DNA from: an uncultured Defluviitaleaceae bacterium | GTDB taxonomy: Bacteria > Bacillota > Clostridia > Lachnospirales > WRAX01 | Assembly (NCBI GenBank): GCA_964385935.1 | Contig: CAYLSP010000001.1 | Coordinates: forward strand, 14,804 to 39,012 | Direction of reading: 5' to 3' | DNA length: 24,209 nt | In this document: piece by piece, positions 21,191-21,370 of the stretch | Position numbering within the stretch: the first letter of the stretch is position 1 | Layout: each line of letters begins with the position of its first letter | Notes under the pieces: model-generated | The model's input: only the letters and a program-made list of their open reading frames with translations | The model's database searches: none | What the model was told of the DNA's origin: nothing | Program-made: the position numbers and the translations under genes

Positions 21191-21219
21191 TTGCAATCCT
21201 CAAATTAACTGAGTAGATT
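21191..21219 (+). promoter_or_regulatory. Junction-spanning sigma70-like promoter facing the replication gene
   Basis: TTGCAA (21191-21196), 17-nt spacer, TAGATT (21214-21219); the -10 spans the predicted AT core. Confidence 0.6.
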
Positions 21220-21223
21220 ATTA
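21210..21223 (+). other. Predicted intact IS110 donor recombination site TGAGTAG-AT-TATTA (attP-like)
   Basis: First 9 nt identical to guide 20160-20168; last 7 nt are the reverse complement of guide 20185-20191. Confidence 0.8.
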
Positions 21224-21370
21224 GTTAAGTATTCTGATTTTTTGTTGGATTTGCAGCTATATTTTCTTAATCAAAAAATCAATTTAAATTAAAACAAACT
21301 AAAGCTGACTTTCTCAAGCTTGGCGGATGTTCAACGGAGACTCGGGATACTTCACTGATGATGGGGTATT

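What the first reader, a model, noticed from the sequence alone, without database searches (positions are those of the whole stretch)
21191..21370. Junction promoter could couple excision to replication and late gene expression
Seen: TTGCAA-N17-TAGATT straddles the predicted core (TAG from LD, AT core, T from RD) and faces the replication initiator, DUF669 and terminase genes. Known: IS110 circles form a promoter across the end-to-end junction. Inference: integration at the core would detach the -35 from the rep operon and change the -10 to TAGATA, losing the conserved last T. Replication genes would then be switched on only after circularisation, making a recombination-built lytic switch in place of the usual transposase autoregulation.
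Basis: partly seen in the sequence, partly recalled or inferred. Interest (0 to 1): 0.75.

Follow-up and report, generated by a model that had tools for sequence, protein, structure and literature searches.

The report
Split promoter across phage attachment site
A tailed phage that inserts into its host with an RNA-guided "jumping-gene" enzyme has a conserved promoter lying exactly across its crossover point, so insertion cuts the replication genes off from it and excision joins them again; activity is still untested.

Summary
The motif is real: TTGCAA (21191-21196), 17 nt, TAGATT (21214-21219). Alone it is a modest match (8 of 12 consensus positions) and no more than chance gives in one window.

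Its position and conservation make it significant.
- **Bridge RNA:** encoded at about 20060-20199. Its donor loop spells TGAGTAG-AT-TATTA, found 14/14 at 21210-21223.
- **Conservation:** 12 phage lineages (recombinase 43-77% identical) keep TTGNNN-N17/18-(T/C)AG(A/G)(T/A)T over the core although guides and spacers differ.
- **Gene downstream:** a 360-460-aa gene where one is called; Rep-like features (N-terminal winged helix, DnaA_N/DnaD_N/rep_O) are weak and seen in only some lineages.
- **Integrated relatives:** two elements are cut right after ..TAG-AT, giving TAGATA and TAGATG.
- **Donor-specific constraint:** the bases matching -10 positions 1, 2 and 6 are fixed in donors but vary in targets.

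This is the known IS110 junction promoter, here pointing into the replication, terminase and later genes of a ~35-kb circular phage. No tyrosine or serine recombinase was found on the phage contig.

Promoter activity, and the claim that rep has no other promoter, remain unproven. Read-through from the recombinase gene would give the same coupling.

This scan earlier noted bridge-RNA integration in filamentous prophages of other genomes. I class this as a new variant of a known kind.

The parts
20024..20052 (+). Promoter-like element in front of the bridge RNA (TTGCAA, then TGTAAATCT with a TG-extended -10-like AAATCT). It lies wholly inside the phage and is not split by integration.
   Evidence: Conserved in the phage lineages in alignments A2/A4. 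Its sigma-70 weight-matrix score is weak, 2.8 bits.
20060..20199 (+). Bridge RNA gene. 5' hairpin 20060-20080. Target loop with LTG TGTGGAG-AT (20097-20105) and RTG GTAAATATC (20119-20127). Donor loop with LDG TGAGTAG-AT (20160-20168) and RDG TAATAATC (20185-20192).
   Evidence: RNAalifold on 9 lineages gives 33 pairs, 20 of them with compensatory changes. Guides match donors 14/14 (15/15 in L017) in 12 lineages.
20225..21181 (+). IS110-family DEDD recombinase, 318 aa. The true start is the ATG at 20225, behind an AAGGGAG ribosome-binding site. The longer ORF from 20159 starts inside the bridge RNA.
   Evidence: PF01548 and PF02371; phrog_2199; the database gene call is 318 aa.
21191..21196 (+). 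-35-like hexamer TTGCAA of the junction promoter, on the left-donor (recombinase) side of the core.
   Evidence: TTG lies 26-27 nt before the core A in 10 of the 11 elements anchored (L023 reads TTACTT there), and the three lineages added fit.
21210..21223 (+). Unsplit donor (attP) site: left arm TGAGTAG (21210-21216), crossover core AT (21217-21218), right arm TATTA (21219-21223).
   Evidence: Matches the donor-loop guides 14/14 and occurs only once per genome copy. The crossover position is confirmed by integrated relatives L022 and L023.
21214..21219 (+). -10-like hexamer TAGATT, made of TAG (end of the left arm), AT (core) and T (first base of the right arm). The predicted transcription start is about 21226.
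   Evidence: In the donors, hexamer position 2 (A) and position 6 (T) never vary and position 1 is T or C. The equivalent target-guide positions vary.
21205..21229 (.). Conserved flanks AAC ... GTT (here TTAAC ... GTTAA) bracketing the 14-nt programmable donor.
   Evidence: High-information columns in the core-anchored alignment. Function unknown.
21371..22513 (+). Putative replication initiator, 380 aa, with an N-terminal winged helix. First gene downstream of the junction promoter.
   Evidence: phrog_270 at E=3.7e-4. Atlas feature neighbours are phage replication initiation, HTH_36 and DnaA_N clusters. Only sub-threshold Pfam hits.
22529..23017 (+). DUF669-like protein.
   Evidence: phrog_2300. 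Atlas neighbours are DUF669 clusters, score 0.93. No Pfam hit at E<=0.1.
23454..24209 (+). Terminase large subunit, N-terminal part. It continues in the contig overlap.
   Evidence: PF03237 Terminase_6N at E=9.6e-17. Full length 434 aa at C1:3278-4582.

Best explanation
The window is part of a ~35-kb circular (or concatemeric) genome of a tailed temperate phage. On the evidence here, its integrase is an IS110-family bridge-RNA recombinase.

The motif is the ancestral IS110 junction promoter. Its -35 lies on the recombinase side of the attachment site. Its -10 is built from the last three bases of the left donor arm, the AT crossover core and the first base of the right arm.

In a compact IS this promoter drives the bridge RNA. 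Here about 33.8 kb of phage genome lies between the core and the bridge RNA, so the promoter points into the rep, DUF669-like and terminase genes and the genes that follow.

Recombination at AT with the host target has two effects:
- The -35 plus TAG-AT stays at the right prophage end, facing host DNA, with the last T replaced (predicted TAGATA).
- rep is placed at the left prophage end behind host sequence. It is cut off from this promoter and also from read-through out of the early operon and the recombinase gene.

Excision rebuilds the promoter and the transcription path. Expression of rep and the genes behind it is therefore tied to the circular state.

**Shown here:** the motif, the donor and core, its conservation, the split in integrated relatives, and the lack of a conserved second promoter.

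**Inferred:** that the motif is an active promoter, and how much of rep expression depends on it.
For: **Genome state**
- Contig C1 has a 4-kb terminal overlap, so the genome is circular or concatemeric and the donor is unsplit.
- No PF00589 or PF00239 recombinase lies on C1.

**Bridge RNA and donor**
- The bridge-RNA fold has 20 of 33 pairs with compensatory changes.
- Its donor-loop guides match 21210-21223 at 14/14.

**Conservation of the promoter-like element**
- Twelve attP lineages show it: TTGCAA (2), TTGACT (4), TTGATT (4), TTGACA, TTGAAA.
- Spacing is 17 nt in 9 lineages and 18 nt in 3.
- The -10 reads TAGATT (8), CAGATT (3) or TAGGAT (1).
- Spacers and guide arms differ between lineages.
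- It is the best promoter-like site between the core and 200 nt beyond it (reaching into rep) in 9 of 12 lineages, tied in 1. It is in the top 0.01-0.07% of all sites in each of the nine loci scored.

**Link to the donor and the rep-like gene rather than to the recombinase**
- In L020 the recombinase module lies elsewhere in inverted orientation. TTGACT-N17-TAGATT still sits with the donor directly upstream of a 392-aa gene at the rep position.

**Integrated relatives**
- L022 is a prophage end in a Holosporaceae chromosome, next to def and fmt. It reads GGGATAG|AT|ATATT, and the right flank matches its own target guide. The -10 there reads TAGATA.
- L023 is a compact IS with both ends. It reads TAGATG when integrated, and the rebuilt junction would read TAGATT.

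**Donor versus target positions**
- The base after the core is T in all 12 donors and their guides. It is T in only about 4 of 15 target guides.
- The bases 3 and 2 before the core are (T/C)A in all donors but vary in targets.

**Other support**
- The phage's likely early promoters use the same TTGCAA-N17 format, at 16397 and 16930.
- Durrant et al. 2024 (PMC11208160) show that IS110 circles rebuild a sigma-70 promoter across the core, with the -35 in the right end.
Against: - There are no transcript data. The single read-laying run returned only DNA contigs.
- The single-sequence match is weak: 8/12, not listed by the scan tool, and the family pattern is expected 0.86 times per window by chance.
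- The conserved TAG-AT-T could reflect requirements of the recombinase or RNA for the donor rather than RNA polymerase.
- The conserved TTG could be a protein-binding site.
- Equal-scoring promoter-like sites lie 8-33 nt beyond the core in L017, L020 and L194. A better one lies there in L021.
- The window has a good -10 (TATATT, about 21257-21262) without a good -35. An activator-dependent promoter could use it.
- No terminator-like site follows the recombinase gene, so read-through may be what really feeds rep.
- The window's predicted target was not found in its own genome bin or in 19 family genomes beyond chance.
- The bin is Clostridia-like by rpoB, so the true host is uncertain.
- No left prophage junction (attL) with rep behind it was recovered.
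Confidence: 0.6

Rival explanations
1. Coupling by read-through only. The junction motif is a weak or vestigial leftover of the IS ancestor. rep is transcribed mainly by polymerases that start at the early promoters (about 16397 and 16706) or at the bridge-RNA promoter, and then run through the recombinase gene and across attP. Integration still disconnects rep, but the junction promoter adds little.
For: - All genes from 16397 round to 15153 are on the + strand.
- No terminator-like site lies after Sak4, the bridge RNA or the recombinase gene.
- Three lineages have the weaker CAGATT -10, scoring 6.1-8.5 bits.
Against: - A vestigial element should have decayed over the divergence seen here (recombinase down to 43% identity, spacers unalignable). 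Yet TTG, the spacing, and the A and T of the -10 are kept in all 12 lineages.
- In L020 the element is no longer downstream of the recombinase gene and is still intact in front of the gene at the rep position.
Confidence: 0.22
2. The motif is a recombination signal, not a promoter. The conserved TTG block, the AAC/GTT flanks and TAG-AT-T are contacts for the recombinase, the bridge RNA or an accessory factor at the donor site. Their likeness to -35 and -10 elements is incidental.
For: - The conserved G-AT-T is exactly what the invariant AATC end of the right donor guide pairs with.
- AAC and GTT flank the 14-nt donor symmetrically.
- Donor-specific conservation alone cannot tell a protein contact from a promoter.
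Against: - The conserved positions are the ones that matter most to sigma-70: TTG, a 17-18 nt spacer, A at -11 and T at -7.
- In IS621 the equivalent element was shown by RNA-seq to start the bridge-RNA transcript, and its -35 lies in the right end (PMC11208160).
- A 22-bp donor without the -35 still recombined in IS621 when the RNA was supplied in trans (same paper). In that system the -35 region is therefore not needed for recombination.
Confidence: 0.12
3. The motif is a chance consensus match in AT-rich intergenic DNA.
For: The family pattern is expected 0.86 times per window by chance. The match is below the scan tool's threshold.
Against: The same motif sits at the same distance from the core in 12 lineages whose flanking bases are not conserved.
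Confidence: 0.01

Closest known systems
IS110/IS621 circle-junction promoter driving the bridge RNA (Durrant et al. 2024, PMC11208160)
   Same: - Same recombinase family (PF01548 + PF02371).
- Same RNA layout: 5' hairpin, then target loop, then donor loop.
- The -35 is in the right end after the recombinase gene.
- The promoter is completed across the crossover core only in the circle.
   Different: - The core is AT, not CT.
- The first gene downstream is a phage replication gene, followed by terminase and later phage genes. The bridge RNA lies about 33.8 kb further on and has its own conserved promoter-like element.
- The element is a ~35-kb tailed phage, not a 1.3-kb IS.
- The compact IS relative L023 still has the classical layout.
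Tn916 Porf7: DNA-processing and conjugation genes expressed only after excision and circularisation (Celli & Trieu-Cuot 1998, as cited in PMC11658703)
   Same: Integration separates a long operon at one end of the element from the promoter at the other end. Circularisation joins them, so expression is gated by excision.
   Different: - In Tn916 an intact promoter reads across the joint. Here the promoter itself is cut in two at the crossover.
- Tn916 uses a tyrosine recombinase, plus a terminator and antiterminator (T1 and canT). No such insulator was found here.
- Tn916 is a conjugative element, not a phage.
Junction promoters (Pjunc) of IS circles in other IS families, such as IS911, IS30 and IS2 (my own knowledge, not checked here)
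   Same: A strong promoter is assembled from an outward -35 at one end and an inward -10 at the other, only in the circular or abutted-ends form.
   Different: Those promoters boost transposase synthesis. Here the recombinase is not the first gene downstream.
Filamentous phages with IS110-family integrases
   Same: A phage uses an IS110-type enzyme rather than a tyrosine or serine integrase. In earlier scan notes the recombinase gene abuts the phage Rep gene.
   Different: Those are ~7-kb inoviruses. This is a tailed phage with terminase, a T7-type portal, a capsid protein and an endolysin. I found no published promoter-splitting analysis for any of them.
Expanded cargo-bearing IS110 elements up to ~100 kb (bioRxiv 10.64898/2026.08.14.744561)
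   Same: An IS110 recombinase and bridge RNA mobilise a large body. Phage-derived sequence is noted among the cargo.
   Different: - That work stresses resistance cargo and half-matched boundaries, and the word 'promoter' does not occur in its text.
- Here the donor is fully matched and the cargo is a complete phage with a lysogeny module.

Membership tests
IS110-family bridge-RNA recombination system (IS110 subgroup) | [quoted passage not shown] | tested here: met
   PF01548 at E=3.2e-13 and PF02371 at E=2.5e-15; phrog_2199.
IS110-family bridge-RNA recombination system (IS110 subgroup) | Non-coding RNA upstream of the recombinase gene, with a 5' hairpin and two stem-loops that carry internal loops | tested here: met
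   consensus fold of 9 lineages, 33 pairs, 20 of them with compensatory changes.
IS110-family bridge-RNA recombination system (IS110 subgroup) | Donor-loop guides complementary to the two arms of the element's own junction | tested here: met
   Exact full-length match of guides to donor in 12 lineages with different sequences: 14/14, or 15/15 in L017.
IS110-family bridge-RNA recombination system (IS110 subgroup) | Target-loop guides complementary to the host flanks of integrated copies | tested here: inconclusive
   Met in relatives: L022 right flank ATATT, and L023 both flanks. For the window's own phage the predicted target TGTGGAG-AT-ATTTA was not found.
IS110-family bridge-RNA recombination system (IS110 subgroup) | Compact element of about 1.2-1.6 kb without cargo | tested here: not met
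   The unit bounded by the donor core is the whole ~34,977-bp phage genome.
Sigma-70-type promoter | -35 and -10 hexamers close to TTGACA and TATAAT, a 16-18 nt spacer, A at the second and T at the last position of the -10 | tested here: met
   TTGCAA-N17-TAGATT has 4+4 matches with both key -10 bases present. The same holds in 12 lineages.
Sigma-70-type promoter | A mapped transcription start about 7 nt after the -10 | not testable with these tools
   No RNA reads could be laid. The one read-laying run was used on DNA contigs.
Excision-gated expression (Tn916 Porf7 type) | Promoter and operon lie at opposite ends of the integrated element and are joined only in the circle | tested here: met
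   Follows from the geometry of the donor. The integrated relative L022 keeps the -35 and TAGAT at the recombinase end, next to host def and fmt.
Excision-gated expression (Tn916 Porf7 type) | No promoter for that operon inside the integrated element | tested here: inconclusive
   No positionally conserved second promoter was found. The window's best alternative upstream of the rep start scores 5.6 bits against 8.5 for the junction. L017, L020, L194 and L021 have equal or better sites just past the core.

The most novel reading that the evidence does not exclude
A whole clade of tailed temperate phages, probably of Holosporaceae-like alphaproteobacteria, are in effect giant IS110 elements. They choose their integration site by a reprogrammable bridge RNA. 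They have also turned the ancestral IS junction promoter into a physical lysogeny lock. Replication and the genes behind it can be transcribed only from the excised circle, because the crossover cuts their promoter in two and also cuts the read-through path. This would make in-situ replication of the prophage impossible without needing a repressor at that promoter.
Probability: 0.3. Interest if true: 0.82.

Novelty: new variant of a known kind. Interest (0 to 1): 0.66.

Why it matters
If the junction promoter is active, this phage group links its decision to replicate to the topology of its DNA, not only to a repressor. That would be a second, mechanical safeguard against replicating while still integrated.

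It would also show how a selfish IS feature was re-used by a virus. The promoter would have gone from boosting the guide RNA to starting phage replication.

In practice, the 12 natural donor/promoter variants with their matching guides form a ready-made set. They show which donor positions can be reprogrammed and which are fixed. That matters for anyone designing bridge-recombinase donors that must also carry or avoid promoter activity.

The claim is directly testable with three short reporter constructs.

Tried and rejected
- **Close relatives in public phage records:** megablast of 19000-24209 found no match.
- **Single-protein scan of viral contigs:** nothing found. An alignment query was needed.
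- **Metagenome scan:** gave only distant compact IS copies at 33-42% identity, of little use.
- **Search for the window's attB:** the predicted target TGTGGAGATATTTA(C) had no exact hit in the window's own bin. One-mismatch hits in 19 family genomes were at control level.
- **Search for the left junction of the L022 prophage:** the best hit lay inside what looks from its translation like a host surE-type gene, so it is chance. Other right-arm copies (L220, L222) lie in degraded or unclear contexts.
- **Structured leader or insulator between the core and rep:** the RNA fold z-score is only -1.1 and no terminator was found.
- **Rfam:** no family hit in the window.
- **Operator shared with the repressor region:** no convincing shared word of 9 nt or more.
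- **Read laying:** only assembled DNA contigs were available, so there is no information on transcription starts.
- **Rejected idea, passenger IS:** I considered that the IS110 gene is a passenger IS inserted in the phage. The donor is unsplit, the synteny is conserved across lineages, and no other recombinase is present.
- **Host assignment:** the genome bin does not identify the host. Its rpoB is Clostridiales-like, whereas the integrated relative sits in a Holosporaceae chromosome.

Full report
**What is at the coordinates**

The sequence reads TTGCAA (21191-21196), 17 nt, TAGATT (21214-21219). It starts 10 nt after the stop of an IS110-family recombinase gene and points at the ORF 21371-22513.

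Each hexamer matches the sigma-70 consensus at 4 of 6 positions. The scan tool needs 9 of 12 and does not list the site. A simple position-weight score puts it about ninth on the + strand of the window. A degenerate pattern covering all family variants is expected 0.86 times per window by chance. On its own, then, the motif is real but not remarkable.

**The genome around it**

The window is C1:14804-39012 of a 39,012-bp contig. The last 4 kb of that contig repeat its first 4 kb, so the unit is about 34,977 bp and is circular or concatemeric, with no host flanks.

It is a tailed phage. It encodes:
- terminase large subunit, T7-type head-tail connector, capsid protein and GH108 endolysin;
- an ImmA-like protease and HTH repressor pair on the minus strand;
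- an early operon on the + strand with a RecE-like protein and a Sak4-like protein.

No tyrosine (PF00589) or serine (PF00239) recombinase maps to this contig.

The only recombinase found is the IS110 enzyme (PF01548 + PF02371). Its real start is the ATG at 20225, giving 318 aa, as the database gene call also has it.

**The bridge RNA and the core**

The 170 nt upstream of the recombinase gene are strongly conserved among relatives. They fold into a 5' hairpin plus two stem-loops with internal loops. Twenty of 33 consensus pairs show compensatory changes.

The 3' loop carries TGAGTAG-AT on one side and TAATAATC on the other, whose reverse complement is GATTATTA. Together they spell TGAGTAGATTATTA. 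That sequence occurs once per genome copy, at 21210-21223.

The same rule finds an exact full-length donor in eleven further lineages whose guide letters differ:
- L017, L015/L016, L020, L021, L101, L191, L192, L194, L224, L225, L226;
- their recombinases are 43-77% identical to this one.

**Where the crossover falls**

Two relatives are integrated.

L022 carries phage early genes (ERF, DUF6876), a bridge RNA and the recombinase. It then reads GGGATAG|AT|ATATTG..., followed by host def and fmt. The five bases after AT match its own target guide. The closest relatives of its fmt are in several independent Holosporaceae bins.

L023 is a compact IS with both ends. It reads GCCCGAA|AT|TGTAAG... 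bridge RNA ... recombinase ... ATGGTAG|AT|GCGGAG. Both host flanks match its target guides.

In both relatives the break is right after ...TAG-AT, and the -10 position reads TAGATA (L022) or TAGATG (L023). Joining the L023 ends would restore TAGATT.

For the window's phage, the target loop predicts TGTGGAG-AT-ATTTAC.

**Conservation of the promoter-like element**

I anchored all sites on the core. TTG lies 26 or 27 nt upstream of the core A in ten of the eleven elements anchored (L023 reads TTACTT there), and the three lineages added later fit.

| Feature | Variants across the 12 attP lineages |
|---|---|
| -35 | TTGCAA (2), TTGACT (4), TTGATT (4), TTGACA (1), TTGAAA (1) |
| Spacer | 17 nt (9), 18 nt (3) |
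| -10 | TAGATT (8), CAGATT (3), TAGGAT (1) |

The spacer letters and the first four bases of the left arm are not conserved.

In the nine loci scored genome-wide, the site is in the top 0.01-0.07% of all position-and-spacer combinations. It is the best promoter-like site between the core and 200 nt beyond it in 9 of 12 lineages and tied in one.

In L017 and L224 the -35 overlaps the last codons of the recombinase gene.

In L020 the recombinase module lies 2 kb away in the opposite orientation. TTGACT-N17-TAGATT still sits with the donor directly in front of a 392-aa gene at the rep position. The element therefore travels with the donor and that gene, not with the recombinase gene.

**A donor-specific constraint**

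Donor and target loops have the same layout, so equivalent positions can be compared.

| Position (-10 hexamer position) | Donors and their guides | Target guides |
|---|---|---|
| First base after the core (6) | T in 12 of 12 | T in about 4 of 15 |
| Second base before the core (2) | A in all | A in about half |
| Third base before the core (1) | T or C in all | any base |

The G before the core and the AT itself are conserved in both loops, so they look like recombination requirements.

The three positions fixed only in donors are the three most important positions of a sigma-70 -10 element. This is the strongest indirect argument that RNA polymerase, and not only the recombinase, constrains the site. 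It does not exclude a donor-specific protein contact.

**What is known**

Durrant et al. [quoted passage not shown] They also report that a 22-bp donor lacks the -35 box of that natural promoter (PMC11208160). The phage element is the homologue of this junction promoter.

The difference lies in what follows it. Here the first gene downstream is a rep-like gene, followed by a DUF669-like gene, terminase and further phage genes. The support for those labels is:
- rep-like gene: phrog_270 at E=3.7e-4, and Atlas neighbours that are phage replication-initiation clusters;
- DUF669-like gene: Atlas features only.

The bridge RNA sits about 33.8 kb further round the circle, behind its own conserved TTGCAA...TGTAAATCT element.

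The logic resembles Tn916. [quoted passage not shown] They are expressed from Porf7 only after circularisation (PMC11658703).

Two further lines of earlier work are close:
- IS110-type integrases are described in filamentous phages (PMC11209303), and earlier notes of this scan report the same.
- A 2026 preprint reports IS110 elements with large cargo, including phage-derived sequence, but contains no promoter analysis.

**What remains open**

No transcript evidence could be obtained.

There is no conserved second promoter between the core and rep. The window's best candidate upstream of the rep start scores 5.6 bits against 8.5 for the junction. Four lineages, however, have equal or better sites just past the core.

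The window also has a good -10 (TATATT near 21257) without a -35, which an activator could use.

No terminator-like site follows the recombinase gene. Read-through from the early operon would therefore cross attP in the circle and be cut off in the prophage. That gives the same coupling without needing the junction promoter.

The predicted host target was not found. The bin that holds the contig is Clostridiales-like by rpoB, so the contig is probably mis-binned.

A relative's contig in one run ends exactly at 21218, the last core base. That is what a branch between circular and integrated forms would give, but it is a single weak hint.

**Verdict**

- The placement of the core, the homology to the IS110 junction promoter and the splitting on integration are supported.
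- I judge promoter activity likely, at about 0.6-0.65. It is not shown.
- I put the claim that this is the switch that alone turns replication on at about 0.3.
- I class it as a new variant of a known kind: an IS110 junction promoter with Tn916-like excision gating, in a tailed phage with an RNA-guided integrase.

Noticed in passing
window 20182-20700 versus C1:8-530: The two copies in the contig's terminal overlap are identical from 20700 onward. They differ by about 20% in the N-terminal half of the recombinase gene. The copy at the contig start has a stop and is read in two frames. This looks like two strain variants, or a mosaic recombinase gene, in the sample.
   Followed up: partly
window 16447-16456 and 16980-16989: The left target guide plus core plus T (TGTGGAGATT, 20097-20106) recurs exactly twice. 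Both copies lie inside a duplicated block in the early 'switch' region and are followed by ACCA rather than the predicted right target arm. The meaning is unknown.
   Followed up: partly
window 19808-19818 (minus strand): An inverted 11-nt copy of the donor centre (GTAGATTATTA) lies inside the Sak4-like gene. About 0.01 such matches are expected by chance. Recombination with the true donor would invert the bridge-RNA and recombinase module, which is the arrangement seen in L020.
   Followed up: no
window 20140-20169: The donor guide repeats TAGATT, so the bridge-RNA gene itself contains a promoter-like TTGAGC-N18-TAGATT (9.3 bits) pointing at the recombinase start codon.
   Followed up: no
window 16397-16425 and 16930-16958: TTGCAA-N17-GATAAT occurs twice at the head of the early operon. 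It has the same -35 hexamer and spacing as the junction motif. With the junction that makes three matches to TTGCAA-N17-KAKAWT against 0.07 expected, but the pattern was chosen after the fact.
   Followed up: partly
L195:877-1094 versus L196:78-295: These two phage contigs have identical recombinase genes (0 differences in 963 nt) and identical bridge RNAs, except for the inner hairpin and right target guide (TAAATAATC versus TAACTGATC). This looks like natural retargeting between otherwise identical phages.
   Followed up: partly
L021:4982-5027, L191:4488-4530, L192:4497-4535: In one clade an inverted, imperfect copy of the left donor arm lies 15-25 nt downstream of the donor. In L021, for example, TAGGCAGATTATTA is followed later by TAATAACCTGCCTG. 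It could be a second half-site or a hairpin.
   Followed up: no
L020:3700-7020: The early-gene, bridge-RNA and recombinase block is inverted relative to the donor-rep-terminase block. The recombinase gene is followed after 54 nt by an OMP beta-barrel gene and further on by a group II intron reverse transcriptase.
   Followed up: partly
window 20008-20090 (runs X1 and X3): A 1.9-kb contig with very high depth (about 1,400x and 3,400x, against about 11x for the phage) shares the bridge-RNA promoter and 5' hairpin region. It is probably a related multicopy IS in an abundant organism of the same gut samples.
   Followed up: no
G000:C192 (L219) versus contig C1: The bin's rpoB is 86% identical to a Clostridiales protein. 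The phage's integrated relatives and closest named recombinases are from Holosporaceae and other Alphaproteobacteria. The phage contig is probably mis-binned.
   Followed up: partly
L220:1430-1520 (Holosporaceae bin of L022): A second, degraded recombinase 3' end is followed by GGGAT|TGTTAGTT. This is the expected donor with the four bases AGAT missing, as if the crossover had used the AT inside the left arm.
   Followed up: no
L024:3650-4050: The recombinase gene of this relative is interrupted after about 14 codons by roughly 300 nt of unrelated sequence (the ORF resumes at 4049), so this copy is broken.
   Followed up: no
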